A DNA stretch of 57,770 nt, taken from a virus (Duplodnaviria; Caudoviricetes). Within the stretch, counting starts at the first letter, position 1. Every line of letters starts with the position of its first letter. A model generated the notes under the pieces. That model searched no databases and was not told the origin of the DNA. It saw only the letters and a list, made by a program, of their open reading frames with translations. The position numbers and the translations under genes are program-made. Of this stretch, positions 19,326 to 48,137 are shown piece by piece. The stretch spans positions 1 to 57,770 of IMG/VR virus record IMGVR_UViG_3300030090_003001. One strand, written 5' to 3'.

Positions 19326-19486
19326 TGGCTAAAACAAAAATTGATTGGGAATATTTACAAAGTTTAAATTCATTAAATAGAAAATATGAAATGAAAAGAA
19401 TTGCAGATAAGATTAAGAAGGAAAAAGAAGAAGAAGAAAAAATGAAACTTAAAAAAACAACAGTATGGAGGGAACCAGATGTATAA
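19325..19486 (+). CDS. Small charged protein (53 aa, not in ORF track)
   Basis: TAATG coupling; MAKTKIDWEYLQ...; overlaps the endolysin start. Confidence 0.55.
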   Translation: MAKTKIDWEYLQSLNSLNRKYEMKRIADKIKKEKEEEEKMKLKKTTVWREPDV

Positions 19487-28100: not shown

Positions 28101-31100
28101 TGCGATATGAAATACCAGTAAAAACTATTACAGCTAGTGGTAGTAATTGGGCATCAACAGATGATATGTTAATAAAAATTAATATAGGTAGCCAAGGAAC
28201 TGCTGGAATAGATGGAATAGACGGAACTCCCGGAGCAGATGGGCAAGATGGCCAAGATGGAGCAGATGGTGCAGATGGTGCGCCGGGCGCAGATGGGCAA
28301 GATGGACAAGACGGAGCGCCGGGTACAGACGGACAAGACGGAACAGATGGTATTGACGGACAAGATGGCGCTGATGGTGCGGATGGAGCTGACGGAGCTG
28401 ATGCTCCAACAATTATTTGGAAAGATAAATATAATGACAGTACAGCTGGTCGATTTGGAATAGGATGCTTAGATGCAAGTAATAACGTAATTACTAACTT
28501 TGCTAATATATCTGGCACTGGTTCTGTAATGGTAAACACTATAGATGCTGATGGTGTAGACCACGAATTATATTTAAGCACACTTATTACTAATCATAGA
28601 GGTATAATAAGAAAACAAACATCTTTTGTAGAGTTTAAACTAACATCAGATGTAATTTTAACTGGAACTGGTTCTGATAGAAAAGCACAATTTTCTGTGT
28701 CTTATGAAAATGGTGCTAGTACTATTGCTGCAGATGAAATAGCTACAATAAATTGCACAATATCTGGAAAAGATGGCATTGATGGACAAGATGGGACAGA
28801 TGGAGTTGATGGGGTTGATGGTGTAGATGGGCAAGATGGAACAGATGGTATAGATGGAACGGATGGGCAAAACGGAGCAGATGGTACTAATGGTGCTGAT
28901 GGAGCAGATGCACAATTTTTTTCTGTGTCATACGAAGCAGTTACAGTAAGCTTTAACAATTCTTCTGGAAGTCCAGTTTTACAACCATCTGGTAGCGCAC
29001 AAGACATATCATTAACATCAAGAAGACAAAACATTACAAGCAATGTTACTCACACTATATACTCAGATTCAAGTTATAGCAATATACACTCTAGTGTTGT
29101 TTTTGGTAATGGTTCAGCTACTCAGACTAGTCTTGATGTATTTATAGATGTTTCTTCTTGGACGCCAAGTAGTGTAGGGGAAACAATTTATATTAAATCA
29201 GTTTGTGGTTCATTTGAAGATAGACAATCTATAACTGCTTTATATAGCGGTGCAGATGGAAATGATGGCGTTGATGGACAAGATGGTATAGATGGTGAAC
29301 ACGGTCAAGACGGTACAGATGGTGCAGACGGAGAAGACGGGGCATCATTAATACTAACAAATGAAAATCACTCAGAAATAGCTGATGGTGCTACTAATAA
29401 TTTAAGTTTTGCTGCTAAACAAATAGGAGAGGCTACATTATATTTTGGAGCAACTCCTTATACTCAAACAACTTTTGGTGACAGTAACTGGACTAACGCA
29501 ACAATTACAATTTTGGGAACAACTTATTCTGCCAGAACAACAAGTCAAAACGGATTATCTGTATATGTAACAACTAATGACTCTACGACTGCAAAAATAA
29601 TAATATTTGCTAGCAATTGGAATACTGCTGCTGAAACTTTTGACATATCAGCTTACAAACCATCTGGAGAAGAATACAAAAAAACATTAACCATAGTAAG
29701 ACAAGTATCTGGTGAAGATGGTAATGATGGAAATGATGGTAGTGATGGCCAATATACAAAATATGCTTATAAAAATGCTACAACACAACCAAGTACTCCT
29801 ACTTTTTTAGGAACGTATAGCAACCCATCGCCACCAACTGGCTGGTCGTTTACACCAACAGCTCCTAGCCCTAATGAATATGTATGGGTTTCACAAGCTG
29901 TATATTTGCCAGCTGGGCCACAAACAGCATCAGACCCTATTCAATTTACACCAGACGATGTAGCGCAAGCTGGATTAAATGGTTTGTTGACTTGGCAAAG
30001 TATGTTAACTGAGCCGGGGTCATTTGTTGTTAATAACATCCACACAAATTTTACACCTAATGGAAACATATATGCTACTAACAACATAAACTCGCTATTT
30101 GGGCAAGAGCATTTAAACATAAGTTGGGCAACGGGTGTTCAGCAAGGCAATATGATTCTTTTTTCAAAAGACAGCAGTACTTATAATGAAATGACATTAG
30201 GTGGTGATAATCAAAATATGGCAAGCAATTCTCCATATATATTTTCACTATATTATAAAAGCATTTCAGCATTATGGACTAATAGCAAAATAAAATTAGG
30301 ATTAAAAACCGCAACCGGCGCACATTGGGTTTCTGATTCAATAACTATATTAGGTGCAAATACTAATTGGACAAGAATATCTGGAGTTATAGATGTTCCA
30401 GTTTCTGGTTCAGAACAATTTGTTCCATTTATATGGATTGACGAAGGTGACTCTGAAGACAATAACTCTTTTATTGGAACAGCTTTTGCAATAGACGGGT
30501 TAATGCTTGAAAGAAAAATTGGTGATAACAATGAACCAAGTCCATTTCATACTGGTATATCTTCAATGGGAGGAGACGCTACATTAGATTCTTTAGTAGA
30601 TGCTGAACCACCATCGGGAGGTGGTTTTCATTTTGACTCAACACATTTAGGTTTTTATAAAGATAGTAGTTGGACAACCTATATGGACAATCAAGGTGAT
30701 TTCTTTTTAAAGGGACAAACTAATGCTGATGTTGATACTGCTCTTTCATTTGATGGTTCAACTGGTGACCTTACAGTATCTGGTAAATTAAAGTTAGGTG
30801 ATACTTTATATCAAAACGTGAGTTTAACAGTTGGCTCAAACAATACTATACCTAATTCAACACAATGCACAAAATTATCAATAGATGCAAAAAATTATTT
30901 AGTAAGTGATAATACGCTTGTTTTTGACACTTATTCAAACAGCAATTTAAGTGATGGTTTAGTTTTAATAGTTTTAGATGGACAAACAGATGAATTAGAA
31001 ATCAGACACAAAATGATATATGATACAACGTCTGCTAATAATGGTGTTACAATACAACAATCTTCACAAGCTTTAATAGACCATATAGATGGAACAACCA

Positions 31101-33703
31101 ATTTATCAGATGGAGCGCAATTAAGAAATGCAGATATAGTTATTGTTTTAGGTTATCGTGAATGGGACACATTGTTTAATAATGGGCAGACATATGTTAA
31201 CTATGGAATTGATGAAGCATTATATTCTATCGGCGCAGCAGCTGCAGATATATATCCACACCATCTAAATGGCTTTAATAATAATGATGAAGTTTTATTA
31301 ATAGTAGGTAAAAAAGGATTAGGCAAAAATAATGGTTATTCTATAAGAAAATCATCAACACATACAGAACCAGTTGATTTTCAGTTTTCTGTATATGATG
31401 GTACTATTAGTGTGGGATTATCTTCTAGCGGTACAGTTATTACGGGTAATCAAATACAAAGTGGAAAAATAGTTTCTAATAATGTAGATGAAACAGTTTC
31501 TAATACACATTATATATCACAAGGAACTAAAATTGATTTAGACGCTGGTACAATACAAACTAAAAACTTTGCTATTGATGCAAATGGAAATGCTAGGTTT
31601 AAAGGAGAAATAGAAGCTCTTAGTGGTAATATAGGCGGAGCATTGACGTTAGGTGCCGGAAATATGAAAATAGGTGGCTGGAGTGATAATTCAGTAGCCT
31701 ATATTGGTATAAGTGTAGATAACAATAATTACTGGTATGATTCTGGAGATTTTATAGTAGGTAATGGTACTAGTTATATTGGATACAATTCTTCATTAGA
31801 TGAAGTAACAGTAAAAGCAGATAAAATTGATATAGGTAGCACGACAGTTACTAACGAAGACACATTAATAGATGCTATTAATAACGCTGGTACAAACACT
31901 AGAATATCTGGAGACCACATAGAAATTAATGGAAATACAGTATTTACAAGTGGTTTTCAAACTGGTGATAAAATTATATTTTTATGGAACGGTGGAGGTG
32001 TAATACCAGACAACCCATACTATGGGTATTCTGAACCTAATTTTGATTTTCAGCACGGAAGTGAAGCGGCTACTGTTTATTACACTGATGCTAATGCAGA
32101 AATGGGATACAACAATAGTTCTGGAGGTTTTGTTAGTAGGGCTTTAAGAGCTGGAACTGCATCTGGGGATTCAACAATAGGTTGGACATTTGGGGATGAA
32201 TCGAATAACCAATATTCAGATACACATTCAAACAATGGGATGTATCCTTACGACCCAACAAAATTATACAAAATGACAATAAGAGTAAGAAGGTATGCTG
32301 GCTCATCTTCAGAAGCTTTAACATATGCTGGTGTTGCTATGTATGCATCAAATGGTTCTCAATTAGATAGGGATGGAGATTATCAAACAAATGGAAATGG
32401 AGATTTTAATCACGCTCCAGTTGTGTTAGATGGGCAGATAGTTGGCTCTCAATTTGTTACTTATACTGGTTATTTTAGTGGAATTACTGGAACAAATAAT
32501 GGTAGTGACATAAAACAATCTAATACACAGACGCAACCATCTCCTTTAGCGCAAGGATGCACACAATTTAAACCATACATAATTTGCAATTTTGGCTCAG
32601 TTAGCGCAAGAACATCAATTGATTATATATCTATAATTGAGATGGGTGGCGGAGGAAACACTGTAATTGATGGAGATAGAATAGTAACTGGTACAATTGG
32701 TGCTGAAAGAATAGATGTAAATTCGATATTTGCTGTTGATGCTAACATTACTAATGTTTTAACAATGGGTTCTGGCAATGAACAAAAAGTTATAATAGGT
32801 AATGATTTAAGTATAGCTGCTGGCGATATGGACAATGAAGATATTGTTATAGGTAAAATAGCAGCTGGAAACAGCTCTTGGACATCTTCAAATGCTAATA
32901 GTGGATTAACATACAGTGTAAATGGCCCAGCTATTATTATACCAAAAGGCGAAGGTGATTTTACTTTTATGGGAACTCAAGGCCTAATGAAAAATGCAAA
33001 TCAATATATGGCTTGTTTTATGCAAACCCCAGTAGTAGGATGGAAAACAAATGTTACTCAACACGATACTTCCGTATTTAATATGTCATCTTTAGGTTGG
33101 CCAAACTTATATGCACCAATTTGTTCTTTAGATGTACCTTTTAGCTATATGCCTAATACAATGCCCACAACTACTGAGTTTGATATTGTTTGGACTTTTA
33201 TGCCTACTACTATTTGGTACTCTTTTGGAAACGCTGATGAGGCGATAGTTAATGTTAATATGCCACAAACAACTTCTTTGTCAGAAGGTAACTTTTTTGA
33301 TGGTACACAATGTTTTATACATAATGGAAGCACTTGGGATTTAGGTAACAGTGTAAATACGCAAACTGAAATTTACGATACTAATAAAATTGTTGACATA
33401 TGGACTACCGCACAAGAAAGCACTACTACAATGTTGTCGCACGGGTTTATTCCAGCGGGAACAAACATTACTAATTTATACTTTTTGTCTGCAAGGTATG
33501 TTATAAATAATAATGATGACGCAGATTATTCTGGCAACTACAGTACAGAAGCAGAAGCATTTTGGAAAGCTGGATATAATGGTGGCATAGGAGGGCTGCT
33601 ATCATTTTATATAGCTGACCAACAAGTCCCAGATTATGGTACCAACTTAGCTGGTGGTTCGCCATCTATAGGAAATGCTAGCAGTGGAAATCAAGGTAAT
33701 TAA
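25133..33703 (+). CDS. Giant tail fibre/receptor-binding protein with collagen-like repeats
   Basis: LTVRGQMNVYEMVINQIRATNG fibre motif; six G-X-D collagen tracts; WRGAW...WDLLA carbohydrate-binding-like module; beta-sandwich domains. Confidence 0.85.
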   Translation: MPISQPKILFKDGLPQANQGYEGEMRVGRANGQLHLFVRTKNEWHSVPFTSELGKTLASEVTAITLKETQINQQTISNIICDTIKVNNNLQDSSGNPIDSATLVAHPSDATQAHSDYLKNTTAEQLDGALIITGGSSLAASAEHILKSVSSMSSTNVFFVGNPDYSSGGGNPYAKKSGFYVSPGNLEGIFHIGTTSGQDFVLDDSGLLKVEDITVTDDITLSGNLIHGSTDVLYSQNNSIRLLVDEISTDGGNTWGELYPAQQPTDTNRIAFSGGNPATSGNPIQADLVSNSVTNTYLSMNVDQDVGTTNTPQFERLGIGIAADGTIDVNISSTDPKVQFKDETNNSTASIGLTSGTLNLNTPTAISTTDNKSVGSETFTPGYTGTGYQITQLGSDKYRIECEELTVRGQMNVYEMVINQIRATNGSLFVTSSAVIDSIETVNTDYVKITFDSKDADYHPFADDDICIYQTWDTNGNNAVRYFIKVTDHDVYDNNQLKGQVYNTTGDLQTGNDVDTAVGNISAGKALCRIGNSSDSARQGGVYLTSDDSGAPFVSVWDDITAPNQWGTADKEKARFGNIGGISYNGSSIPANTYGLYAENVHLTGKITATEGYIGSVAAGWAIDQYGIINSSGNADNRIAIGTGNHNNSDTPFYVDGAGKFSLKDKLVWDGSNLSITGSVTLPNNEEVVGPGMTWRGAWNENTTYAKYDAVSYDDGNGVRSWISEDNNNTNNIPSTTSNDWDLLADAGTDGTDGQDGTSGNDGNPGDYIKYAYATQATQPSAPTFGGTYDSPTVSGSGWSFNMSAPSNGTFVWVSETTYDYTSGASPTTGSTPIQLSGNDGTDGQDGTDGQDGADGANGQDGADGANGQDGADGQDGADGQDGIDGQDGVDGVDGKDGEALTWRYNNWINLAASAGRWMTQNQDGNYHQLDVGQNGTIIINREDADGNRHDNSLAAMRTGDRFQITLIEGSQSGSFGLYEVTGASTAVMMRYEIPVKTITASGSNWASTDDMLIKINIGSQGTAGIDGIDGTPGADGQDGQDGADGADGAPGADGQDGQDGAPGTDGQDGTDGIDGQDGADGADGADGADAPTIIWKDKYNDSTAGRFGIGCLDASNNVITNFANISGTGSVMVNTIDADGVDHELYLSTLITNHRGIIRKQTSFVEFKLTSDVILTGTGSDRKAQFSVSYENGASTIAADEIATINCTISGKDGIDGQDGTDGVDGVDGVDGQDGTDGIDGTDGQNGADGTNGADGADAQFFSVSYEAVTVSFNNSSGSPVLQPSGSAQDISLTSRRQNITSNVTHTIYSDSSYSNIHSSVVFGNGSATQTSLDVFIDVSSWTPSSVGETIYIKSVCGSFEDRQSITALYSGADGNDGVDGQDGIDGEHGQDGTDGADGEDGASLILTNENHSEIADGATNNLSFAAKQIGEATLYFGATPYTQTTFGDSNWTNATITILGTTYSARTTSQNGLSVYVTTNDSTTAKIIIFASNWNTAAETFDISAYKPSGEEYKKTLTIVRQVSGEDGNDGNDGSDGQYTKYAYKNATTQPSTPTFLGTYSNPSPPTGWSFTPTAPSPNEYVWVSQAVYLPAGPQTASDPIQFTPDDVAQAGLNGLLTWQSMLTEPGSFVVNNIHTNFTPNGNIYATNNINSLFGQEHLNISWATGVQQGNMILFSKDSSTYNEMTLGGDNQNMASNSPYIFSLYYKSISALWTNSKIKLGLKTATGAHWVSDSITILGANTNWTRISGVIDVPVSGSEQFVPFIWIDEGDSEDNNSFIGTAFAIDGLMLERKIGDNNEPSPFHTGISSMGGDATLDSLVDAEPPSGGGFHFDSTHLGFYKDSSWTTYMDNQGDFFLKGQTNADVDTALSFDGSTGDLTVSGKLKLGDTLYQNVSLTVGSNNTIPNSTQCTKLSIDAKNYLVSDNTLVFDTYSNSNLSDGLVLIVLDGQTDELEIRHKMIYDTTSANNGVTIQQSSQALIDHIDGTTNLSDGAQLRNADIVIVLGYREWDTLFNNGQTYVNYGIDEALYSIGAAAADIYPHHLNGFNNNDEVLLIVGKKGLGKNNGYSIRKSSTHTEPVDFQFSVYDGTISVGLSSSGTVITGNQIQSGKIVSNNVDETVSNTHYISQGTKIDLDAGTIQTKNFAIDANGNARFKGEIEALSGNIGGALTLGAGNMKIGGWSDNSVAYIGISVDNNNYWYDSGDFIVGNGTSYIGYNSSLDEVTVKADKIDIGSTTVTNEDTLIDAINNAGTNTRISGDHIEINGNTVFTSGFQTGDKIIFLWNGGGVIPDNPYYGYSEPNFDFQHGSEAATVYYTDANAEMGYNNSSGGFVSRALRAGTASGDSTIGWTFGDESNNQYSDTHSNNGMYPYDPTKLYKMTIRVRRYAGSSSEALTYAGVAMYASNGSQLDRDGDYQTNGNGDFNHAPVVLDGQIVGSQFVTYTGYFSGITGTNNGSDIKQSNTQTQPSPLAQGCTQFKPYIICNFGSVSARTSIDYISIIEMGGGGNTVIDGDRIVTGTIGAERIDVNSIFAVDANITNVLTMGSGNEQKVIIGNDLSIAAGDMDNEDIVIGKIAAGNSSWTSSNANSGLTYSVNGPAIIIPKGEGDFTFMGTQGLMKNANQYMACFMQTPVVGWKTNVTQHDTSVFNMSSLGWPNLYAPICSLDVPFSYMPNTMPTTTEFDIVWTFMPTTIWYSFGNADEAIVNVNMPQTTSLSEGNFFDGTQCFIHNGSTWDLGNSVNTQTEIYDTNKIVDIWTTAQESTTTMLSHGFIPAGTNITNLYFLSARYVINNNDDADYSGNYSTEAEAFWKAGYNGGIGGLLSFYIADQQVPDYGTNLAGGSPSIGNASSGNQGN

Positions 33704-39101: not shown

Positions 39102-42100
39102 ATGGCAGATATTTGGGATGAATTAGGACAAATCGAAAATCAAGACGAGCTTGACACACGAGCTGCGCAGATTAAAAAAGACCAAGAAATCCAACAAAGA
39201 AACATAAGAAATATGAACGCTAAACAAGTTATTGAACAGCGTGAAAATATGCTTAAAGCCAAAGAAGCACAAAAAGAGCTTGATGGTGATGTTTGGGAGG
39301 TTTTACCAGAGCAGTCAAAAATTGAGCAAATGCGTAAAGATAGAGCTGAAAGTGAAGCTCAGAAAAACTTTATGACAGATATGGCTGTAGATATGGCTTT
39401 TAATGAGCCGGGAGCTATCGATTTAGACAAAGTTATGAGTCTTACCGGTGTTCCTATTACTTCGAAAAGAATGATGGATATAGGGCGTCCTAAGAGTGCA
39501 ACATTTGGGATAATGTCAGACACTGATATAGATGAAGATAGGTTTAACTCTCAACAAAGAAATGAAATCTATGAGAATCTATATTATAATCGTATAAACC
39601 AAGAAGGTTCCCAAGATTCTACAATTCCTTTATATACTGGATATGCAGCTGATGGAAGCACTATAGAAGAGTCTCAAGCTAGAGATAGAATGAAAGCTGT
39701 TCAAGAAGCAGATAAGCAAGAAGACAACCTTTTTAAATATGTAGATTTTGCATCACAAACAGAAAGAGAAATACCATACTTTGAATTATTCAAAGAGTTT
39801 CCACAAATATACAACTTACCGTACATAAAACAATTTGAAACACAAGATACAAATAATGGGACTATTTCGCCAAGCGTAGCTAAATTTTTAGATGGAAGTG
39901 GTATGGTTGATTTGTCTGATACTACACTTTCAGATTTTATGGAAAACAATCCATACTTAGAAAATGAGACTATAGAAGGCTATAGAAGTAGGATGAAAGA
40001 AAAATATAACCTTAGTGGCAATAAAGTTTTAAAAGACAATCCTTATTATGGATGGAAACCAGAAGATGTGTTTCAAGATTTTGCCCAATGGCTTACAACT
40101 ACATCTCCAGATTCTAAAAATTATGGTGATATGAGCCAAGATGATATAACAAATGATATGTATACCCGAGCTGAAATGCCACCAGAAGGCCAAAGAGACC
40201 AATTCTTTTTAGAGAATTATAGATTAGGTGGGCAAGCGTTTAGATTAGACGACAAGAGAGATATAATAGCTAATTACGGTAAAATTGCATACGAAGAATG
40301 GGCAGCAATGGTTGAAGATGAAGACCTTGCTTATGAAGATTTTAATCCTTATAGACAAAAACTATCTGCTGGTGACAATTGGTATCCATATATGACTGAA
40401 GACCAGCATACATTGTGGGAAGGTGTTAAAAAAGGGTTTGGTCACAAATATGGAACAGCAGATGATAGGATGTTAAATTCAGTGCATAGATTAGTTGGCC
40501 TTGGAACTGAAAAAGCTGGGCAATTAGTAGGTGTAATGAATAGTTGGAGCGATTATTTAGAAAAAGCATTTGAAGGTGAAATTAGGCAAGAAGACTTTTT
40601 AGGAGCATCTGCAGAATGGCTTCAAAAAACTGGATTTAATATTAAAACTGGACAAACAATGTTACCAGAAGGTGAAACATTTGAGGGTTACAATGTGTTA
40701 AATGACGGACAACAATCTGGTTTTAAAAACTTTGTAGATTCAATTCCCGGATTAGCTATAGACTTATTTTTATTAAAAGGAATGGGTTCAAAGGTTGGTG
40801 CAGCCTCATTACCTATTTGGGTTGCAACACACAGAGGTGCTGAAGCAATTGAAAAAGGTAGAAATGAAATTTTAGATGAAAATACTGGCGAAGTTATAGG
40901 CCAATCTTTATCAACAGATTCTGGTGATATATTACTATCTACGGTAAAAGGTGGCGCTGAAGGTTATACTTACCACTTAATATTTAAAGGCACTAGTATG
41001 ATACAAAGTGGTGCTGGAAGAGCAATGACTGGCGGAACAATATTTGGTGGCCCAGCTATGTACAAAGCTTTAAAAGATGAGTATGATAATGACCCAACTA
41101 CTAAAGGAGACTTTGGTGAAGCTTATTCTAATTTTCTATTTGGTGGGGTTATGTCATATTTTGCTAGAGGTAATAAATATACAGAGCTAGCGCCTTGGCA
41201 AGCTAAACTAATGAGGGCATTTTTAAAACCTCAAGTTGGAAGAGGTAGATTTAGAATACCCTTATCTGAATCAGAAAAATTAGCAATAAATGCATATACA
41301 AATGGAACTGTAAAAGAAGTTCCGGGCTATGGTAAAGTTAAAGTTTTTTATGATAAAAAATCTGGACAAGCTGCTTTTCAAAGTAAAGATGGAGATTGGT
41401 TTCTTTTTACTAAAGGCGGTAAACCAGTTAAAACTTCAGAGCCAGAATTTGGCGAATATTTTAATAGGTCTATATTAACAGAAAAAGGATTTCAAAAATG
41501 GATGGAATCTTTATCTAAAAAAGAAGTTGCTAATATAATTAACGGTAAAGTCCCGGGTATACCAGTTACATTAAAAGATAAAATTGTAATGAAATTGATG
41601 CAAAGATTTAATATGCCTAAGAATTTTGAAATGGTTAAATGGGCTGCTGGAAAAGGAAGAGGAGGAGTAAAAGCTACTAGTGTTCCATATAAAGCTCAAG
41701 CACCAAGTGGTTCTAATATAGTCCCAACTGGTACAAACCAAAAAGTAACAAGCAGCACTACAACAACAGCTTCTCCAGCTGCAGCAGCTGCATCAAGCAA
41801 TATTTCTACCAAGAAAAACACCTCCTCCACACAAACAACATCGTCCTTAGGTGATACTAATAAGACTCCAGATATACAACGCATAACATCATCCGTAATT
41901 TCCCTTCAAAAGACGCCTAGTCAAAAAGTTTATGATGATACTGTTACTCAAATCAACGAAGTAAAATCTGAACTAGATGCTGGTTATATCTTTAAAAATG
42001 GAAAAATGGTACCAATTTCTAAGGGCGATGCTGTAAAAGTAAGACAAAGATTAATAGAGTTAGAAGCAGAAGCTAAAAAAGCTGTAACTGCAGCCAATAA

Positions 42101-45100
42101 ACGTAAAACACCTTTAAAAACACCAGAACAAATAAAATTTGATAATAGTGTTGTTAACCTTAAAGCACCTATTAATCCTAAAACAAACAAGCCTTATATA
42201 GCTTATAACAAACCTATTAAAAATGTTGATGCAGCAATTAAAAGATACGAAGCTGTACAAAAAGATAGGGTAGCCTTACAAGCAAAAAGGGATGGCTTAC
42301 CTAAAACAACTAAAACTTATACAAATTTAGACAACAAAATAACGCAGCTTAATAAATATAGTGATGGGCTTAAAAATGTTATAAATGAAGGAAACCCTTC
42401 GTATTTTAAAAATAAAGCTGCAGCATTAGCTCCAAAACCTACAACTACAGTTGCTCCAAAAGCAGCGCAAACTAAAGGAACACCTAGTAGGGTTGACACC
42501 GAGTTGCCAAATTTAATAAACAAAAGATATGGGAAAAACACTAAGGCTTTAAATGAAAGATTAGAAAGAGATTACGGTGTTGATGATGTTAAAGCACTAA
42601 CAAAAGAACAAAAGACTGATTTACACTCTAATTTAACTGTAGAAGAAATAACTAGAGAAATGGGTGGATTAGAAGCTGGAATGATGGGTATTACACCTCA
42701 AAATATGAAGTTATTAAGAAGAGGTATAATAGATGCTGGTAAATTCACTTATGACAATTTACCCAAATCTATGCAAAAACAAGCCGACAAACTAGGAGTA
42801 ACTACTGAAAACTTTAAACAACAATTTCGTGACTGGACTAAAGACCCTAATAAAGCACCACAAAAAACTAAAGCTTTTTTTAAGAAAGTATGGAAACAAT
42901 TCAAGAATTGGTGGAAAAAAGGGAAAGAGGGATTAAAGGAATATTTAAAAAATCCTAAAATTGGAATGAGTGTAGAAATGGTTGGAAAAGATGGAAAACC
43001 ATTATCTATTAAAGACCAAGCAAAAGCAATGAGAGGTGGAGATAAAAGAGGTGTAGTTAAATCTAAAGCACCTTTTGTTAAAACCAGAACAGCTGAAGGT
43101 ATGAACAAAAGAATACCGCAATCAAAAAGAGCTACTGGTATAACAACACCAAACAAAACTGAAACTGGTGAATCATTTGCAATAACAAAATCTTCTGGCA
43201 GAGGCAGAAAACAAACAATACCACAGCCAGAATTAGATAAAATGCTTGTAGAATCTTTAGCGGAAGCAAACACAAAAGGTATACCATCATCTATTAAAGC
43301 TCCTACAACTAAAGAAGTTGAAACATTTACAGCTGGTAAAAATGAAGATAGGTTTTGGTATGAGCTTTCTACAGATGCTTTTAATAATAAAGTTAGGCTT
43401 GACAATAAAAGCGACAAAAGTAAATTGCACGGTCTAGTTTCTGCAACTAGCGTTAATGAAAAACCTTTTCCAAATTTAGTTAAGGCAATAAGTACCTTAT
43501 CTGAGCATATGCAAGGCTCTCCTATAAACACATCATTAATAGACCCTAAACCTATAACAGATGTATTAAGAGGTGAATCTTTTGAAACACCAAAAATAGG
43601 AAACTTTCAACAAACATTTGATTATATAGCTGGTATAACTGGTCAAAAACCTCTTACTGTAAATGATAGACAAGTAGCAGCAAGGTATGGAATTAAACCA
43701 TCTGACTTAGCTACAAACGCATCTTTATATGAAGCAATATCTTTAAATGAAATTAAAATGGCTGAACGTCTAAATAAAGACTTAAAACCCGGAGAAGAAC
43801 CTTGGACTGAATATCAACTGCAAGCAGCAAGTTGGACAAACACAAGATATGATAAAGGTGTTTCACAAATTGGAGATAATTATGCTCAAGGAATGGAAAC
43901 TTTATTTAACGTATTAGAAAGTAATGGAATTAAGCTACCTAAAGACCCTAGTACTGGACAAAGATATTTAGATACAGAAACTTTACTAAACCCTAATGTA
44001 CCTAAAATTCTGAGTCCAGCTGGGTACAAATATAAAAAAGCTTTAAAAGGTAATATAGAATTTGCAACAAACAATACTATAGAGGGCAAATTGGCTCAAG
44101 ATAATTTTAGTGAAATTGCTAAAGCTTTAGGATTTACAATTGATATAAACCAAGCTAAACAATTAACAAAGATGCAAGAAGCTTATATTGCTACATATAA
44201 AAGAGCTTTAAGAGCTTTAGGGCAACAACCTAAATACAAACCATCTGTTTTAAATAGAATGATAGATGCTATAGTTGGAAAAAGATTTAAACTTTCAAGA
44301 GTTACATATGATACTGGTGGTTGGGCTGGAGTAGTTAACCAAAACATTACATTCCCTTTAGCTGAGTCACAATCAACTGGTAGAGCTTCATTGGAATTAA
44401 ATGACATACAAACAGAAGGATTGCTGTCAATATTAGGAAAATTTGCTGGACAAGATGCTGGTGGAGCTTCTAGATTTAAAAGACTTATAGGCCCAGATGC
44501 TTGGAATAAAGCAGAGTCTTTTCAAATGTTTACACCAGAAAAAGGAATATCTATACAAAAAGAACAAATGCTTTTAGGTGCTATCAAATCTAAAACTGGT
44601 CAAAGTTTAGGGTTTAATAAACAAGAGCTACCAAATGGAACTTTGTTTTCTTTCCATCCAGACGGAAAACTTCCATCCCCAGACAAATTAGAGGCTGCCG
44701 GACTACAAATTTTTGACGAAGGAGTTAACTTAATACCAACTACATATAAAAGTGTATTAGCTGTTGATAAAGAATACAATACAAATATAAGGAGGATGAA
44801 AAATGCCATCGCAGAAGAACTTGCCATCGGAGTTAGAGACAAACTCATCGATGGAACAACAAAACCCCCAAGAGTTGGACTCATCAGTACAGCAATCAAA
44901 GGGAAAAAACCAATCGAAAACTACATCAAAGACATCAAGGCCAGACCCAGAAAGCTTATTGAAGGAGCTAGGTCTAGATACAAATCCAGAATGGACATTC
45001 TCGATGATGCAATCAAAGATTACAAAGTAATTACTAAACAATTAGATAAAGAGTTAGGCGTTTTAAATAAACAAATGGAAGGCCCTTTATCTAAAATAAA

Positions 45101-48100
45101 TGGAAGAAAACTTAATAAGTACGAGGAAATACTTTCTGATGGGTTTGAAGCTGGATTTATGGGTTTCACACCGCAGAATATGAAACTATTAAAACAAGCT
45201 CTTATAGACACATCAACTTTCCTATATAGAGATTTACCTAAGCATTTACAGAAACTTGGCAAAACACTTGGTATAGGAGCTAAAAACTTTAAAAAAGCAT
45301 TAGATAAATTTATGCATTATTTTGGGCCAGTTACGGTAGGAAAGAGAGTCATACCAAAAGCATACAATAAGCTTAAGAATTTTTGGAAGCAAGTTTATAG
45401 TTCTATGAAAACTTGGTGGGGAAGCAACAAAGATAGAGTTGTGGGTGATATACAAAGAGTTAAAGATGCTAGAAGAAAGAATTTATCACAAAAAGATTTA
45501 GCTTATAAAACTCAAAAACAATTAGCTAGAGCAAAAGTTATTGAGGGAAGTTTAATAAAGTCTGGAAGAACTACAGCTAAACAATTAGCAGTACTTAAGA
45601 AAGAATTGCTAGGCGTAAGCAGTTTAGGAGACTTAAACAAAAAAGGTAAACCTACAGACCCAGAGGCAGATAACAAAATTGCTGGATATATAAGAATGTT
45701 AAGAAGATTTGAAAATAGAAATAGGGGTGTTGATATGTCTAAGCTAATTCCAGCGGCAGACCAATACCCAACTCCTACAACTAGAAGCCCTAAAGAACAT
45801 CTGCAAATAGAAATGGGCAATTTAGCTGTAAGAAGGACTGTTCTTAACCACAGAACTTTTGAGTTAACAGACAAAGGCTTAATTGCAGACGCAGACCAAA
45901 GAGCGCCTCTTGGTAAGATAAGACAAGGTGCTTATGCTAGATTTGTTAGAAATATGGGAAATACAGAAGATTTTGCAGATTTAATACAGCAAAAAACTGG
46001 CGCTCCAGTATATGATGCTTATGAAGATGTTAGAATAGCAGTTGGTAACACTGAAGGTTATATAGACCAACATATGCGTCCTTTAATAGAAATAATAAAA
46101 AGAGCTACTGGACAAATAGATTTAGATAAAGCTATGCCATTATCATCAAGAGTTAAAATACATAGAGCTGGTAAAGGTGACCCAGATGCTTTAGCTGACT
46201 TAACGCAACTAGAACAAGATTTATTAAATCATATACAAGGTTATTATAATGACCCAGTAACACAAAAGATTTTTAAATTAAATCGTTTTATGAATTGGTA
46301 TAACAAGTCTGGAGAATCAAACAAGGGTTTGCCGGGCGTTGATAAAAAAGATTTATTAAACCTTAAGGCAATATATGAGGCACAAGGAAATGCTGCATTA
46401 ATAGCTGCATTAGATGATGTTAAAGGCTTGGTTATAGAAAAAAATTATATGCCAGATTTTTCTGAAGCTATAGACTATAACAATTCATCACAAATGTACA
46501 ATCTTAATATTGGCAAACAAACTTTAAAACCAAAAGATAGTAATGCAGATATGAATAAAGATGCTATAAAGGCTTTTATTAGAAAGGTAAGAGCAGATGC
46601 CAAAATATTTTATATGGATGAACCTATTACAAGGTTAGCTAATATAGTAAACACTGGATTACCAGCTGAAGTTTCAAACGATATGCTGCTATCAATAGAT
46701 TCTATGAACAGACCATTAGATACTAGCTCAATGGCAGAAATGAGTTCTAAGTGGGTTGGCCACGTTATGAAAGCTGCTTTAACTCTTCCATCTAAATGGG
46801 GTAGAAACCTTTTTCAGAGACTAACATTATTACCTTACACAAGTGGTGTTAATATGCCTAAAATGCTAGGCTCTATGATGAGAAATACATTCTTTCCTAA
46901 AAAAATAGGTGGAATACCTATGCCAAAAGGTGGAAAAATAGATATTTATAGACCGGGTCGTGGAAGCTTAAATGTAACTAAATCCTCTGATTATATGAAT
47001 GCTCCATCTTGGAAAACTAATCATTTTAATTCAATGGTATCAGCAAATACTAGCTTGGCAGATGATTTTTTAATGTCGACTCATATGCCTATTATAGACA
47101 AGCTTCCTTTTGGTATGAATAAAGCTTTTAGAGGTCTTATAGATACTTATAAATGGACTGATGCTAGTAATAGGTGGGCTATATTTAATCCTATGGTTGA
47201 TGATATATTAAAAACATTAGAAACCGCATCTAAAACTGGCAAAGATTTTAATTCTATAAAAAACAAATTGTATTGGAATAAAGTAGGTGACTATGAAAGT
47301 TTAAAAGATATTTTAAGACCAGAAATACAAATGGCTCTAAATGGCGATGTTGCAGCACAAAGATATGTTGCTTTAAGAATAGCAGAACATATGAGTGGGC
47401 CAGCTGTTAACTGGAGATATAATGCAATGGATAGGTCAATACACGAACAATCTGGAACATTTGGTAGAGGAGTGTTTAGAGCAACAACATACCCAGTTAG
47501 ATTAATAGCACAAGTTGCTAAAGATGCTTGGAAAGTTTATAGAGGTGCTTATAGAGGTAATATGAGCGAAATGTGGGGTGGTCTAAAAGGTGTTATGGGA
47601 AGACTGGCTATTATGTGGGGAATAGAAAAAACATTAAACTATATATATGGCTCCAAACCAAGTGGTGGCGGATGGGGCTATGATTTTATTAGTGATGTTC
47701 TAGGATTTGAGGTCGGAGGACTTGCATTTGCTGGTGCAGATTGGCTGTATGGAACGAAGCCAGCTGTCGGTAAACTGGGAGAAGCTTGGTCTGCATATAT
47801 AGATGGTGATGAAAAATATGGAGATGAGCTTATGGCTAGGGCAGCACAAATGTTAGCAGCTCACACTGATGGAGTATCAAAACAAACAGTTGTATTTTAT
47901 AGGTTTATAACTTGGCAAATGGAAAATGCCTTAGGCGTTAAAAAAGTCTCTCCATTAAGAGACCTTGTAGATGTTTGGCTTAATGAATATGACCCAGAAG
48001 AAATAGATAGGACTACAACACAAATGGTTCAACACGGTTTTACTGGTGCTGGATATGACCCAGAGATTGAGGATGATGGCAAAAGATGGATAGATGAATT

Positions 48101-48137
48101 TGAAAAGATGCCCCCATTACAATTAAACCCTTACTAA
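39102..48137 (+). CDS. Giant (3011 aa) polyvalent ejection/internal virion protein
   Basis: Last large late gene; acidic N-terminus, Gly-rich hydrophobic segments, basic middle with enzyme-like domains, helical C-terminus. Confidence 0.8.
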   Translation: MADIWDELGQIENQDELDTRAAQIKKDQEIQQRNIRNMNAKQVIEQRENMLKAKEAQKELDGDVWEVLPEQSKIEQMRKDRAESEAQKNFMTDMAVDMAFNEPGAIDLDKVMSLTGVPITSKRMMDIGRPKSATFGIMSDTDIDEDRFNSQQRNEIYENLYYNRINQEGSQDSTIPLYTGYAADGSTIEESQARDRMKAVQEADKQEDNLFKYVDFASQTEREIPYFELFKEFPQIYNLPYIKQFETQDTNNGTISPSVAKFLDGSGMVDLSDTTLSDFMENNPYLENETIEGYRSRMKEKYNLSGNKVLKDNPYYGWKPEDVFQDFAQWLTTTSPDSKNYGDMSQDDITNDMYTRAEMPPEGQRDQFFLENYRLGGQAFRLDDKRDIIANYGKIAYEEWAAMVEDEDLAYEDFNPYRQKLSAGDNWYPYMTEDQHTLWEGVKKGFGHKYGTADDRMLNSVHRLVGLGTEKAGQLVGVMNSWSDYLEKAFEGEIRQEDFLGASAEWLQKTGFNIKTGQTMLPEGETFEGYNVLNDGQQSGFKNFVDSIPGLAIDLFLLKGMGSKVGAASLPIWVATHRGAEAIEKGRNEILDENTGEVIGQSLSTDSGDILLSTVKGGAEGYTYHLIFKGTSMIQSGAGRAMTGGTIFGGPAMYKALKDEYDNDPTTKGDFGEAYSNFLFGGVMSYFARGNKYTELAPWQAKLMRAFLKPQVGRGRFRIPLSESEKLAINAYTNGTVKEVPGYGKVKVFYDKKSGQAAFQSKDGDWFLFTKGGKPVKTSEPEFGEYFNRSILTEKGFQKWMESLSKKEVANIINGKVPGIPVTLKDKIVMKLMQRFNMPKNFEMVKWAAGKGRGGVKATSVPYKAQAPSGSNIVPTGTNQKVTSSTTTTASPAAAAASSNISTKKNTSSTQTTSSLGDTNKTPDIQRITSSVISLQKTPSQKVYDDTVTQINEVKSELDAGYIFKNGKMVPISKGDAVKVRQRLIELEAEAKKAVTAANKRKTPLKTPEQIKFDNSVVNLKAPINPKTNKPYIAYNKPIKNVDAAIKRYEAVQKDRVALQAKRDGLPKTTKTYTNLDNKITQLNKYSDGLKNVINEGNPSYFKNKAAALAPKPTTTVAPKAAQTKGTPSRVDTELPNLINKRYGKNTKALNERLERDYGVDDVKALTKEQKTDLHSNLTVEEITREMGGLEAGMMGITPQNMKLLRRGIIDAGKFTYDNLPKSMQKQADKLGVTTENFKQQFRDWTKDPNKAPQKTKAFFKKVWKQFKNWWKKGKEGLKEYLKNPKIGMSVEMVGKDGKPLSIKDQAKAMRGGDKRGVVKSKAPFVKTRTAEGMNKRIPQSKRATGITTPNKTETGESFAITKSSGRGRKQTIPQPELDKMLVESLAEANTKGIPSSIKAPTTKEVETFTAGKNEDRFWYELSTDAFNNKVRLDNKSDKSKLHGLVSATSVNEKPFPNLVKAISTLSEHMQGSPINTSLIDPKPITDVLRGESFETPKIGNFQQTFDYIAGITGQKPLTVNDRQVAARYGIKPSDLATNASLYEAISLNEIKMAERLNKDLKPGEEPWTEYQLQAASWTNTRYDKGVSQIGDNYAQGMETLFNVLESNGIKLPKDPSTGQRYLDTETLLNPNVPKILSPAGYKYKKALKGNIEFATNNTIEGKLAQDNFSEIAKALGFTIDINQAKQLTKMQEAYIATYKRALRALGQQPKYKPSVLNRMIDAIVGKRFKLSRVTYDTGGWAGVVNQNITFPLAESQSTGRASLELNDIQTEGLLSILGKFAGQDAGGASRFKRLIGPDAWNKAESFQMFTPEKGISIQKEQMLLGAIKSKTGQSLGFNKQELPNGTLFSFHPDGKLPSPDKLEAAGLQIFDEGVNLIPTTYKSVLAVDKEYNTNIRRMKNAIAEELAIGVRDKLIDGTTKPPRVGLISTAIKGKKPIENYIKDIKARPRKLIEGARSRYKSRMDILDDAIKDYKVITKQLDKELGVLNKQMEGPLSKINGRKLNKYEEILSDGFEAGFMGFTPQNMKLLKQALIDTSTFLYRDLPKHLQKLGKTLGIGAKNFKKALDKFMHYFGPVTVGKRVIPKAYNKLKNFWKQVYSSMKTWWGSNKDRVVGDIQRVKDARRKNLSQKDLAYKTQKQLARAKVIEGSLIKSGRTTAKQLAVLKKELLGVSSLGDLNKKGKPTDPEADNKIAGYIRMLRRFENRNRGVDMSKLIPAADQYPTPTTRSPKEHLQIEMGNLAVRRTVLNHRTFELTDKGLIADADQRAPLGKIRQGAYARFVRNMGNTEDFADLIQQKTGAPVYDAYEDVRIAVGNTEGYIDQHMRPLIEIIKRATGQIDLDKAMPLSSRVKIHRAGKGDPDALADLTQLEQDLLNHIQGYYNDPVTQKIFKLNRFMNWYNKSGESNKGLPGVDKKDLLNLKAIYEAQGNAALIAALDDVKGLVIEKNYMPDFSEAIDYNNSSQMYNLNIGKQTLKPKDSNADMNKDAIKAFIRKVRADAKIFYMDEPITRLANIVNTGLPAEVSNDMLLSIDSMNRPLDTSSMAEMSSKWVGHVMKAALTLPSKWGRNLFQRLTLLPYTSGVNMPKMLGSMMRNTFFPKKIGGIPMPKGGKIDIYRPGRGSLNVTKSSDYMNAPSWKTNHFNSMVSANTSLADDFLMSTHMPIIDKLPFGMNKAFRGLIDTYKWTDASNRWAIFNPMVDDILKTLETASKTGKDFNSIKNKLYWNKVGDYESLKDILRPEIQMALNGDVAAQRYVALRIAEHMSGPAVNWRYNAMDRSIHEQSGTFGRGVFRATTYPVRLIAQVAKDAWKVYRGAYRGNMSEMWGGLKGVMGRLAIMWGIEKTLNYIYGSKPSGGGWGYDFISDVLGFEVGGLAFAGADWLYGTKPAVGKLGEAWSAYIDGDEKYGDELMARAAQMLAAHTDGVSKQTVVFYRFITWQMENALGVKKVSPLRDLVDVWLNEYDPEEIDRTTTQMVQHGFTGAGYDPEIEDDGKRWIDEFEKMPPLQLNPY
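44803..45030 (+). CDS. Nested out-of-frame gene (75 aa) inside the giant protein gene
   Basis: TAAGGAGG at 44788-44795, 7 nt before the ATG; host-frame codon usage is locally distorted. Confidence 0.6.
   Translation: MPSQKNLPSELETNSSMEQQNPQELDSSVQQSKGKNQSKTTSKTSRPDPESLLKELGLDTNPEWTFSMMQSKITK

What the first reader, a model, noticed from the sequence alone, without database searches (positions are those of the whole stretch)
44788..45030. Hidden overprinted gene at the end of the effector cassette
Seen: a perfect TAAGGAGG, built from tandem AGG-AGG Arg codons where the genome prefers AGA, lies 7 nt before a +1-frame ATG opening 75 codons. Across this span the host frame shifts to C-ending codons (gcc atc, ctc atc, tac atc, gac atc), as expected under dual coding. 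The product is a disordered S/Q-rich N half plus DPESLLKELGLDTNPEWTF. Inference: an independently translated immunity protein or chaperone that neutralises the payload in the producing cell and travels with it inside the repeat-bounded cassette, i.e. an effector-immunity pair nested in one virion gene.
Basis: partly seen in the sequence, partly recalled or inferred. Interest (0 to 1): 0.75.

Follow-up and report, generated by a model that had tools for sequence, protein, structure and literature searches.

The report
Conserved hidden gene inside phage giant protein
A small second gene, read one base out of step, is hidden inside a giant virion-protein gene of this marine phage; related phages keep it at the same spot, so it is very likely real, but what it does is unknown.

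Summary
TAAGGAGG (44788-44795) lies 7 nt before a +1-frame ATG (44803) that opens 75 codons inside the 3011-aa gene 39102..48137.

ORF length alone is unremarkable. But given the host amino acids and the phage's codon usage, the chance that this +1 frame is open is 2e-8. None of the 18 host NTN codons ends in a purine, against 36 of 57 other codons, and the flanks are normal.

Comparative evidence is decisive. The host module has distant homologues (25-31% identity) in 80 IMG/VR loci. All 76 that reach the site carry a +1 ORF there (47-133 codons open; 56 distinct peptides, 29 clusters). Each has an ATG and most have a Shine-Dalgarno-like motif. All share a core motif like the window's LKELGLD...FS.

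Host synonymous divergence roughly halves inside the ORF (0.27-0.33 against 0.58-0.60 in the flanks). In 7 of 8 locus pairs it is the minimum along the gene.

This is a conserved overprinted gene of a new small-protein family with no Pfam, PHROG or PDB match. Members are hydrophilic, mostly basic and free of cysteine.

Only the strict linkage to the module is shown.

The parts
39102..48137 (+). Host gene: 3011-aa giant virion-module protein of the polyvalent type. It has no Pfam or PHROG family of its own.
   Evidence: ORF. No family found. Homologues carry LPD38 or ART-PolyVal domains elsewhere in the chain. It sits at the end of the structural gene block of a podovirus-like genome with an SU10-type capsid protein and a P22-type portal.
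43059..45116 (+). Conserved module of about 690 aa (host aa ~1320-2005) that carries the nested gene in its C-terminal helical part.
   Evidence: 178 library proteins match at E <= 0.001, and many alignments span query 20-705. The AlphaFold2 model with 30 sequences has pLDDT 88.2 and pTM 0.85. The overlapped host residues (model 601-676) are helices with block pLDDT 87-98.
44788..44795 (+). Shine-Dalgarno sequence TAAGGAGG of the nested gene, made of host codons (AT)A AGG AGG.
   Evidence: It is the longest SD match before any start in the window. It is unpaired in the local RNA fold, -6.5 kcal/mol for 81 nt, z +0.87. SD-like motifs lie at the same spacing of 5-9 nt in 35 of 43 homologous starts.
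44797..44799 (+). TGA in the +1 frame, one codon before the nested ATG. It closes the +1 frame upstream.
   Evidence: A +1 stop 0-1 codon before the ATG recurs in many homologues, which leaves almost no room for entry by frameshift.
44803..45030 (+). Nested +1-frame gene: 75 codons plus TAA. Product 8.4 kDa, pI 5.3, GRAVY -1.29, no Cys.
   Evidence: P(open) is 2e-8. 0 of 18 NTN host codons end in a purine, against 36 of 57 others, Fisher p 7.5e-7, and both flanks are normal. It aligns with the ORFs of 76 of 76 homologous loci.
44944..45003 (+). Part of the nested gene that encodes the family's core motif (residues 48-67, DPESLLKELGLDTNPEWTFS).
   Evidence: It aligns with LSxxE(L/Q)(K/R)ELGL(D/N)xxxEL(V/I)IS and variants in alignments A5 and A6. 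This is the best-predicted part of the AlphaFold2 model, pLDDT 72-87 with helix 49-55. It overlaps the host block KLIEGARSRYKSRMD, which is identical in the 73%-identical fragment P0157.
42666..42880 (+). First copy of the repeated linker motif (host aa 1189 onward, G-L-E-A-G-M-M-G-I-T-P-Q-N-M-K-L-L...). The end coordinate is approximate.
   Evidence: Read by eye. A blastp self-comparison at E <= 1e-3 did not report it.
45141..45355 (+). Second copy of the repeated linker motif (host aa 2014 onward). It starts 37 codons after the nested stop. The end coordinate is approximate.

Best explanation
44803..45030 is a real protein-coding gene overprinted in the +1 frame of the giant virion-protein gene. 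It is old, and it belongs to a previously unannotated family of small proteins found wherever this ~690-aa module occurs. It is expressed from the same late mRNA as the host gene. Ribosomes bind the internal Shine-Dalgarno sequence (TAAGGAGG in the window) and start at the ATG 7 nt downstream. This is independent of the ribosomes that read the host frame (inferred from sequence, not shown). The product is a 47-104-aa hydrophilic peptide without cysteine. It has one conserved ~20-residue core (a short helix, then G-L, then an extended hydrophobic-Ser stretch). It also has a low-complexity S/K/T/P/Q-rich arm on the N- or the C-side of the core. Because the gene lies inside the module's own coding sequence, recombination cannot separate it from the module. 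My best guess for function is a module-specific partner that docks through the core motif, as an assembly or packaging adaptor, a regulator or an inhibitor of the module. That step is inference only. The 0.87 is for a real, translated, conserved overlapping gene; I put the partner role at about 0.5.
For: (1) In the window, P(+1 open | host amino acids, codon usage) is 2e-8. The family-wise expectation is 2.4e-6 for frame +1.
(2) The codon shift is frame-specific. 0 of 18 NTN codons end in a purine, against 36 of 57 other codons. The flanks give 11 of 21 and 12 of 22. So it is not a general composition patch.
(3) Beyond stop avoidance, C replaces T at host third positions: 25 C seen against 7.0 +/- 2.4 expected given an open frame. 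That puts Ser/Pro/Thr/Ala rather than hydrophobic residues in the +1 product. The five other long +1 runs come from T3-rich hosts, read as hydrophobic junk, and have at most a 5-nt SD-like match before an internal start.
(4) Among about 27 out-of-frame internal SD+start sites in the window, downstream ORFs are mostly 24 codons or fewer; this one has 75.
(5) Conservation: 80 homologous loci at 25-31% host identity, of which 4 stop short of the site. All 76 others have a +1 ORF at the site: 30 by host-frame alignment, each with at least 52 codons open; 19 by profile; 27 by position. There are 56 distinct peptides in 29 clusters at 60% identity, and locus GC runs from 0.34 to 0.65.
(6) Controls at the 31 aligned sequences: the +2 frame at the site has a median run of 24. 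The +1 frame at upstream points has median 28, with 23% reaching 50. In the 14 low-GC sequences the values are median 17 and 9%.
(7) All 43 distinct starts checked are ATG. SD-like motifs of 4 nt or more precede 35 of 43, against 14.4% of 5006 control ATGs. For 5 nt or more it is 22 of 43 against 4.9%.
(8) Host-frame synonymous divergence, pooled over six lineage pairs: 0.575 in the 60 codons upstream, 0.266 and 0.333 in the two halves of the ORF, 0.596 in the 60 codons downstream. Non-synonymous divergence stays at 0.19-0.26. In 7 of 8 pairs no same-size window elsewhere in the gene is as low (0 of 728-1719 windows).
(9) A profile of the peptides hits 76 of 6567 ORFs on both strands of the loci. 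All 76 are the nested ORF, one per locus (partly circular, because 42 of them trained the profile).
(10) Negative control: the window's other low-prior +1 ORF, in the terminase gene, has 6-11 +1 stops at the homologous place in six distant homologues.
Against: There is no direct evidence of translation: no RNA run was listed and no proteomics exist.
No DNA of a close relative could be read. The only 73%-identical relative is a 108-aa protein fragment, P0157. Its host-frame identity is lower in the overlap (70%; 62% in the first 52 codons) than in the 32 residues after it (81%). The variable arm can absorb this, but it is not what strong dual constraint predicts.
In one pair (L005-L006) pS and pN fall together, so a recent exchange of that segment would also fit. 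In one pair (L008-L011) the dip is not the minimum; 9.7% of windows are as low.
Part of the peptide-motif conservation must follow from the conserved host motif A-R-x-R-Y.
The 76 loci are not independent lineages (29 clusters).
No gene caller has called this ORF or any homologue in the 5.8-billion-protein collection.
Confidence: 0.87

Rival explanations
1. One reading: the nested protein is an immunity protein, or a dedicated chaperone. It binds and neutralises the module (a toxic payload) in the producing cell, making an effector-immunity pair nested in one gene.
For: Strict co-occurrence with the module in 76 of 76 loci, in stand-alone ~770-1150-aa proteins as well as in giant proteins. A far stronger SD than the host gene's own GGAG could give an excess of the small protein. 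Homologous proteins carry effector domains such as ART-PolyVal.
Against: Nothing shows the module is toxic. It has no Pfam, PHROG or PDB sequence match. Its best fold matches are weak: 8-oxoguanine glycosylase Z 9.0 and DUF2419 Z 7.4, both under the tool's caution line for helical folds. The product is largely disordered and usually basic (35 of 43 have pI above 9). From my own knowledge, typical immunity proteins are folded domains. The conserved core changes little while the host module diverges to 25% identity.
Confidence: 0.12
2. The +1 frame is not translated. The synonymous constraint and the open frame reflect an RNA- or DNA-level element, such as a structure or a regulatory site.
For: The 271-nt stretch folds somewhat better than shuffles (z -2.39; 4 of 200 shuffles fold as well). 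Synonymous constraint by itself does not say what is constrained.
Against: An RNA element does not need an open frame, an ATG at a fixed column (43 of 43), an SD 5-9 nt upstream (35 of 43), or purine avoidance confined to NTN codons. The frame stays open across GC 0.34-0.65 and 29 peptide clusters. The constraint ends at the ORF's ends. No Rfam search was run.
Confidence: 0.05
3. Programmed +1 frameshift: host-frame ribosomes slip at AAA AAU, pushed by the SD 3 nt upstream as in RF2. This would make a truncated host protein with a 76-residue alternative tail.
For: In the window the SD ends 3 nt before AAA (44799-44801), and AAA-A allows re-pairing in +1. From my own knowledge, the same 3-nt spacing is used in prfB.
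Against: The A-site codon AAU is the common Asn codon (72%), so no pause is expected. A +1 stop lies one codon upstream, so only one codon is available for slipping. Homologues keep the ATG and the SD-to-ATG spacing but not an A-run (for example ...aataataaATG and ...gtgaagaATG). The shift would cut the host module inside a confidently predicted helix.
Confidence: 0.03
4. Chance ORF beside a chance SD, in a patch of odd codon usage (for example a patch of foreign origin).
For: ORF length alone is ordinary (P = 0.22). C3-rich patches open the +1 frame automatically. A second patch of odd codon usage exists in the terminase gene.
Against: Purine-ending codons are as common as usual, except where they would make a +1 stop. 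A relative at about 94% nucleotide identity shares the stretch without indels (X7 contig 44658-45023, 22 differences, 0 gaps). The conservation and constraint in distant homologues also argue against it.
Confidence: 0.01

Closest known systems
Rz/Rz1-type embedded spanin genes of phage lambda and relatives (recalled, not tested against any sequence here; a phage annotation guide, PMC8785237, appeared only in the listing)
   Same: A small gene lies wholly inside a larger phage gene in the +1 frame, has its own SD and start, is conserved together with its host gene, and the two products are functionally linked.
   Different: Rz1 is a lipoprotein with a signal peptide and a lipobox Cys. The 43 nested peptides here contain no Cys at all and no hydrophobic leader. 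The host is a virion or head-module protein, not a lysis protein.
Overprinted accessory genes of viruses, and single-genome randomisation tests for them (Schlub et al. 2018, PMC6188560, abstract read; Pavesi 2021 review, PMC8227390, abstract start seen in listing)
   Same: A new frame laid over an older gene. The new product is hydrophilic and predicted disordered. It is detectable by synonymous-codon randomisation and by reduced synonymous change.
   Different: Most documented cases are in small RNA or ssDNA viruses and are confined to narrow clades. This one sits in large dsDNA tailed-phage genomes and is kept across host-protein divergence down to 25% identity.
Polyvalent proteins of phages and conjugative elements (Iyer et al. 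2017, PMC5512222; abstract and passages found by term search read, supplements not seen)
   Same: The host gene is a giant multi-module protein in a virion gene block. Homologues of its module are fused to LPD38 or ART-PolyVal domains. Modules shuffle between architectures.
   Different: The paper's main text has no occurrence of 'overlapping' or 'frameshift'. The module matches none of the Pfam families, LPD families included, at E <= 0.01. Whether it is one of the paper's LPDs listed only in supplements could not be checked.
Effector-immunity pairs of polymorphic toxin systems, including phage MuF toxins (recalled)
   Same: A small partner gene is inseparably linked to an exchangeable module of a large delivered protein.
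   Different: Known immunity genes lie downstream, not inside the effector's coding sequence. Neither toxicity nor binding is shown here.
RF2 (prfB) programmed +1 frameshift (recalled)
   Same: An SD-like element 3 nt before a codon that can re-pair in +1 (window only).
   Different: No slow or stop codon in the A site and no conserved slippery site. A conserved ATG with initiation-type spacing is present instead.

Membership tests
Out-of-frame embedded (overprinted) protein-coding gene | Alternative frame open beyond what the host amino acids and codon usage allow | tested here: met
   P = 2e-8 locally, and an expected 2.4e-6 such windows over all genes. 0 of 18 NTN codons end in a purine, against 36 of 57 others.
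Out-of-frame embedded (overprinted) protein-coding gene | Own start codon with a ribosome-binding site | tested here: met
   TAAGGAGG, 7 nt, then ATG, unpaired locally. Real genes of the window use AAGGAG-type SDs. ATG in 43 of 43 homologues and an SD-like motif in 35 of 43, against 14.4% of controls.
Out-of-frame embedded (overprinted) protein-coding gene | ORF conserved at the homologous site in relatives | tested here: met
   76 of 76 loci that reach the site (80 fetched, 4 cut short).
Out-of-frame embedded (overprinted) protein-coding gene | Reduced synonymous change in the host frame, bounded by the ORF | tested here: met
   Pooled pS is 0.27-0.33 inside and 0.58-0.60 in the flanks. It is the gene-wide minimum in 7 of 8 pairs. 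Pairwise Nei-Gojobori counts were used, not a tree-based test.
Out-of-frame embedded (overprinted) protein-coding gene | Product detected (Ribo-seq or proteomics) | not testable with these tools
   No RNA run was listed for the stretch. No cultured relative is present in GenBank phages.
Effector-immunity pair | The module is toxic or enzymatically active against cell components | tested here: inconclusive
   No family or PDB sequence match. Only weak fold resemblance of model residues 100-294 to an 8-oxoguanine DNA glycosylase (Z 9.0, rmsd 3.5, 167 aligned) and DUF2419 (Z 7.4).
Effector-immunity pair | The small protein binds and neutralises the effector | not testable with these tools
   This needs a binding or activity assay. 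The one complex prediction gave no verdict and is listed under Tried and rejected.
Effector-immunity pair | Tight genetic linkage of the partner to the exchangeable module | tested here: met
   Present in every module copy examined, stand-alone or fused.
Embedded o-spanin (Rz1-like) | Lipoprotein signal with lipobox cysteine (feature recalled) | tested here: not met
   0 Cys in 43 distinct peptides. All are hydrophilic, with maximum GRAVY -0.53.
RF2-type programmed +1 frameshift | Slippery P-site codon followed by a stop or rare A-site codon, conserved in relatives (features recalled) | tested here: not met
   The A-site codon AAU makes up 72% of Asn codons. The sequence before the ATG differs between homologues.
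Helix-turn-helix DNA-binding domains (excisionase or HTH_17-like; the resemblance of ...EEAxxLGIPRxTSVIS... is my recollection) | Profile match to an HTH family | tested here: inconclusive
   No HTH family among the Pfam matches of 43 members at E <= 10. No PDB sequence match apart from one chance-level row (E 0.27). The peptides are short and hmmscan filters drop weak hits, so absence is not proof.
Polyvalent protein (host gene) | Giant multi-domain protein in a virion gene block that combines modules found in other architectures | tested here: met
   3011 aa at the end of the structural block. The module occurs in proteins of 228-4098 aa. LPD38 or ART-PolyVal is present in 3 of 7 homologues scanned. 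The host protein itself has no recognised effector domain.

The most novel reading that the evidence does not exclude
The nested peptide is an obligate partner of the module, encoded inside the module so that domain shuffling can never separate the pair. It could be an inhibitor or immunity factor, or an adaptor that loads the module into the capsid. That would be a 'self-contained' effector-partner cassette kept in at least 30 diverged phage lineages. It would also be the first overlapping-gene family tied to polyvalent or head-internal proteins.
Probability: 0.35. Interest if true: 0.85.

Novelty: new member of a known kind. Interest (0 to 1): 0.72.

Why it matters
Out-of-frame embedded genes are known in tailed phages mainly from lysis cassettes, and annotation pipelines do not call them. 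Here a single-genome signal leads to a whole family. It comprises 56 distinct small proteins in 76 uncultured phage contigs, plus the window's own. None is present as a called protein in a 5.8-billion-protein collection.

The family sits inside a widespread but unannotated head or polyvalent-protein module. The module can stand alone between terminase and portal, or be fused into 2000-4000-aa proteins. That gives a concrete handle on the function of both proteins.

It is also a clean case for studying how two frames coexist. The host segment is a confidently predicted helix, while the new frame gives a short motif plus a disordered arm.

It shows too that hidden genes can ride inside shuffled modules of injected phage proteins. 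That matters for annotation and for any engineering that recodes such genes synonymously.

Tried and rejected
- Close relatives, DNA searches that found nothing: blastn and tblastn against GenBank phages (one search failed on length and was resent shorter). IMG/VR scans with single-sequence or two-sequence queries. My own degenerate patterns. The GTDB genome scan.
- The metagenome scan found only a near-identical copy, L002, with 1 difference in 801 nt.
- Cluster mates P0002-P0006 differ from the host protein at 3-4 of 3011 residues, none in the overlap.
- No homologue of the nested peptide is in that collection.
- Sequencing runs: no RNA holder was listed. Contigs of four marine runs were laid. 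One X7 contig covers 44658-45023 with 22 differences and no gaps, and one X11 contig covers 44730-44925 with 1 difference.
- Complex prediction of the nested peptide with the module: no verdict, score 0.00, so it counts neither for nor against binding.
- Fold searches of the module: Foldseek against PDB gave nothing at E <= 0.001. The wide VIA search gave only helical-bundle rows and weak glycosylase or DUF2419 rows.
- Family searches of the nested peptides that found no credible match: Pfam, PHROGs, PDB profiles and the ESM Atlas.
- A jackhmmer run from one peptide reached only 16 loci. It was replaced by position-based and profile-based counts.
- The antisense ORFs 44757..45041 and 44600..44899 were considered as the selected frame and rejected. 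Avoiding ATA (0 of 11 Ile codons) removes no stop in either antisense frame, and their products are Phe/Cys-rich.
- A promoter and terminator scan of 44300-45400 showed nothing above shuffles.
- Supplementary files of PMC5512222, which list all LPD domains, could not be seen.
- Literature: five full-text searches listed no report of a gene nested in a polyvalent or head-module protein. This is an absence in those listings only.
Full report
**What is there.** The window is a complete 57,770-bp IMG/VR virus record. It has 34-39% GC and no tRNA. It carries an SU10-type major capsid protein and a P22-type portal, and its near-identical copies occur in marine metagenomes. Gene 39102..48137 encodes a 3011-aa protein with no Pfam or PHROG family. 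At 44788-44795 lies TAAGGAGG, the only copy on the + strand. Seven bases later comes ATG 44803 in the +1 frame, opening 75 codons up to TAA 45028-45030. A +1 TGA lies one codon before the ATG. AGA is 72% and AGG 15% of Arg codons. Ile in the overlap is ATC 9 and ATT 2 of 11, where the genome uses ATC 6% and ATA 59%. All three CTC codons of the gene lie here.

**Is it more than chance? Single-genome tests.** Length alone is not. The 76-codon open run is only the sixth longest +1 run in the window's genes. Synonymous shuffling gives P = 0.22 for a run that long somewhere in the host gene.

The place, however, is one where an open +1 frame is very unlikely. An exact calculation from the host amino acids and the genome's codon usage gives P(open) = 2e-8. 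Summed over all 13,279 windows of the genes, the expected number of open windows with so low a prior is 2.4e-6 for frame +1 and 2.8e-5 for frame +2. Four of the six long +1 runs have priors of 10^-0.2 to 10^-2.5. They come from T3-rich host codons, read as hydrophobic junk, and none has more than a 5-nt SD-like match before an internal start.

The codon shift is also frame-specific. None of the 18 NTN host codons ends in a purine, although 17 are followed by a purine and would then form TAA, TAG or TGA in +1. By contrast, 36 of the 57 other codons end in a purine (Fisher p 7.5e-7). The 76 codons on either side give 11 of 21 and 12 of 22. A general composition patch would not spare only the dangerous codons.

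Beyond stop avoidance, C replaces T at third positions. There are 25 C where 7.0 +/- 2.4 are expected, and 14 T where 33.7 are expected, given an open frame. This is the strongest C3 patch and the strongest codon-usage outlier (z -4.84) of the whole window. In the +1 frame, C at that position gives Ser/Pro/Thr/Ala and T gives hydrophobic residues.

The phage's ordinary genes use AAGGAG-type SDs. Among about 27 out-of-frame internal SD+start sites, the ORFs that follow are mostly 24 codons or fewer. The start region is unstructured.

**Close relatives gave little.** Five cluster mates differ at 3-4 residues, none in the overlap, and L002 is near-identical DNA. A 108-aa fragment, P0157, is 73% identical and begins at the same Met1899. 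Its host-frame identity is 70% in the overlap, 62% in the first 52 codons, and 81% in the 32 residues after it. The block KLIEGARSRYKSRMD, which overlies the nested core motif, is unchanged. Its DNA could not be obtained. A marine contig at about 94% identity covers the ORF without indels, but its differences were not listed.

**Distant homologues decide the matter.** An exhaustive search with host residues 1301-2500 found 178 proteins at E <= 0.001. A profile of the ~690-aa module (alignment A4) then fetched 80 IMG/VR loci at 25-31% identity. Four of them end before the site.

In all 76 others the +1 frame carries an ORF at the homologous place.
- 30 were placed by host-frame alignment. There the open run is at least 52 codons in 31 of 31 sequences, counting the window, with median 68.
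- 19 were placed by a peptide profile, with 18 of those 19 hits in frame +1 inside the longest ORF. For all 43 loci the profile hit, the count is 42 of 43.
- 27 were placed by position.
- All 76 are listed.

Controls were run on the 31 aligned sequences. The +2 frame at the site has a median run of 24. The +1 frame at 152 upstream points has median 28, with 23% reaching 50. In the 14 low-GC sequences the values are median 17 and 9%. The peptides number 56 distinct sequences in 29 clusters at 60% identity, from loci of 0.34-0.65 GC.

All 43 distinct starts I checked are ATG. An SD-like motif of 4 nt or more lies 4-11 nt upstream in 35 of 43, against 14.4% of 5006 other ATGs in the same loci. 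For 5 nt or more it is 22 of 43 against 4.9%.

As a negative control I used the window's other low-prior +1 ORF (5461..5778, in the terminase gene). It has 6-11 +1 stops at the homologous place in six terminase homologues of about 22% identity.

**Synonymous constraint.** I ran Nei-Gojobori counts on 12 locus pairs and a sliding-window comparison on 8 of them. In 7 of those 8 pairs, no same-size window elsewhere in the host gene (0 of 728-1719) has synonymous divergence as low as the overlap. Examples are 0.21 against a median of 0.58 for L008-L025, and 0.13 against 0.73 for L034-L051. Non-synonymous divergence there is ordinary in most pairs.

The exceptions are L008-L011, where 9.7% of windows are as low, and L005-L006, where pS and pN fall together. 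Three of the 12 pairs were near saturation and uninformative.

Pooled over six lineage pairs, pS is 0.575 in the 60 codons upstream, 0.266 and 0.333 in the two halves of the ORF, and 0.596 in the 60 codons downstream. pN stays at 0.19-0.26. The constraint therefore begins and ends with the ORF and covers the low-complexity arm as well as the motif.

**The host segment is not a spacer.** An AlphaFold2 model of host residues 1301-2010 has pLDDT 88.2 and pTM 0.85. The overlapped residues (model 601-676) are helices with block pLDDT 87-98.

The module has no Pfam, PHROG or PDB sequence match, either in the window or in five stand-alone homologues of 770-1147 aa. It has no match in 50,697 GenBank phage records. 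Three of seven longer homologues carry LPD38 or ART-PolyVal domains, which ties the family to the polyvalent proteins of Iyer et al. 2017 (PMC5512222, passages read). In L028 and L078 the stand-alone gene lies between terminase and a portal-type gene.

**The product.** The 43 distinct peptides aligned (A6) are 47-104 aa, median 58. Their median GRAVY is -0.99. 35 of 43 have pI above 9, and there are no Cys. They are rich in S, K, P, T and Q. The window's member is one of four with pI below 7 (pI 5.3).

All share a core of about 20 residues. Examples are LSKKELKELGLDRGSELIIS, KVSAQEFLKITGLPRSTSTIS, and the window's ESLLKELGLDTNPEWTFS. The low-complexity arm lies either before the core, as in the window, or after it.

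AlphaFold2 with 21 sequences gives low confidence for residues 1-40, pLDDT 72-87 for residues 41-75, and one helix at 49-55.

No known family matches. To me the core looks like the helix-turn-helix of excisionase-type proteins, and the arms recall SPKK-like basic tails. These are recollections that no search supported.

**Mechanism and rivals.** Shown:
- a conserved open frame;
- a conserved ATG;
- an SD at initiation spacing;
- frame-specific codon choice;
- synonymous constraint bounded by the ORF.

Inferred: internal initiation on the late mRNA of the host gene, giving a small protein that acts together with the module in which it is locked.

The immunity or chaperone idea remains possible (about 0.12 for immunity proper), but it has no support beyond linkage. 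An untranslated RNA element (0.05) does not explain the ATG, the SD or the open frame. An RF2-like +1 frameshift (0.03) fits the window's spacing but not the homologues. Chance is excluded by the comparative data.

**Novelty.** Embedded +1-frame genes are a known kind in phages (Rz/Rz1, recalled). This is a new family in a new setting. Five full-text searches listed no report of it. The polyvalent-protein paper's main text does not contain 'overlapping' or 'frameshift'. Its supplements, which list all uncharacterised domains, could not be seen.

Noticed in passing
window 5461..5778 (+), inside gene 5016..6602: A second +1-frame ORF of 106 codons that is open against a very low prior (3e-9 for the run; 10^-5.5 to 10^-7.2 per 77-codon window). 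It coincides with the window's second strongest codon-usage outlier (z -4.57). The ATG is the second codon of the run, there is no clear SD, and the product has a hydrophobic C-terminal half. The host gene is terminase-like (Terminase_6C, E 1.2e-4, just under Pfam's cut-off). It is not conserved in six terminase homologues of about 22% identity, which have 6-11 +1 stops.
   Followed up: partly
window 19564..19758 (+), inside gene 19479..19871: A +1-frame ORF of 64 codons preceded by GAGGTGAT, 5 nt before the ATG. It is the second longest ORF after an out-of-frame internal SD. The product ends in a membrane-helix-like stretch. The host gene has a weak Peptidase_M15_4 match (E 0.0034, below cut-off). 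The prior for being open is only 0.004, so chance is not excluded.
   Followed up: partly
window 44757..45041 (-) and 44600..44899 (-): Two antisense ORFs (94 and 99 aa) overlap the nested gene. The first is in register with the host codons and is open because Leu is CTY and no Ser is TCA. The products are Phe/Cys-rich. I read them as by-products of the codon choices made for the +1 frame.
   Followed up: partly
window 42666-42880 and 45141-45355 (host aa 1189 and 2014 onward): A repeated linker-like motif (G-x-E-A-G-x-M-G-x-T-P-Q-N-M-K-L-L ... N-F-K ... W-K) brackets the module. It was seen by eye and was not reported by a blastp self-comparison at E <= 1e-3.
   Followed up: partly
window 43300-43880 approx. 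(model residues 100-294 of host aa 1301-2010): The N-terminal part of the module weakly resembles an 8-oxoguanine DNA glycosylase (3n0u_A, Z 9.0, rmsd 3.5, 167 aligned) and the queuine-salvage enzyme DUF2419 (Z 7.4 and 6.8). This is under the tool's caution line for helical folds. A nearly invariant ...L-S-T-N-D-R-Q-V-A... stretch stands out in alignment A4.
   Followed up: no
P0157 (ENA fragment, 108 aa) against window 44796: The only 73%-identical relative was called as a gene starting exactly at host Met1899, directly after the SD, on a 718-nt contig. The gene call may have been drawn there by the SD, or the host frame may be broken upstream in that contig. This could not be checked without the DNA.
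   Followed up: no
L028 395..6418 and L078 216..6047: Stand-alone versions of the module (770 and 1024 aa) sit between terminase genes and a following gene (SU10-type portal in L078; the 750-aa L028 gene had no Pfam match). This is a head-morphogenesis position, unlike the window, where the module is fused into a 3011-aa protein at the end of the structural block.
   Followed up: partly
window 25133..33703 (+): A 2856-aa protein with collagen triple-helix repeats (Pfam Collagen, E 3.3e-30) and tail-fibre PHROGs. Its Gly-X-Y coding makes the longest chance +1 runs of the window, 120 and 80 codons.
   Followed up: no
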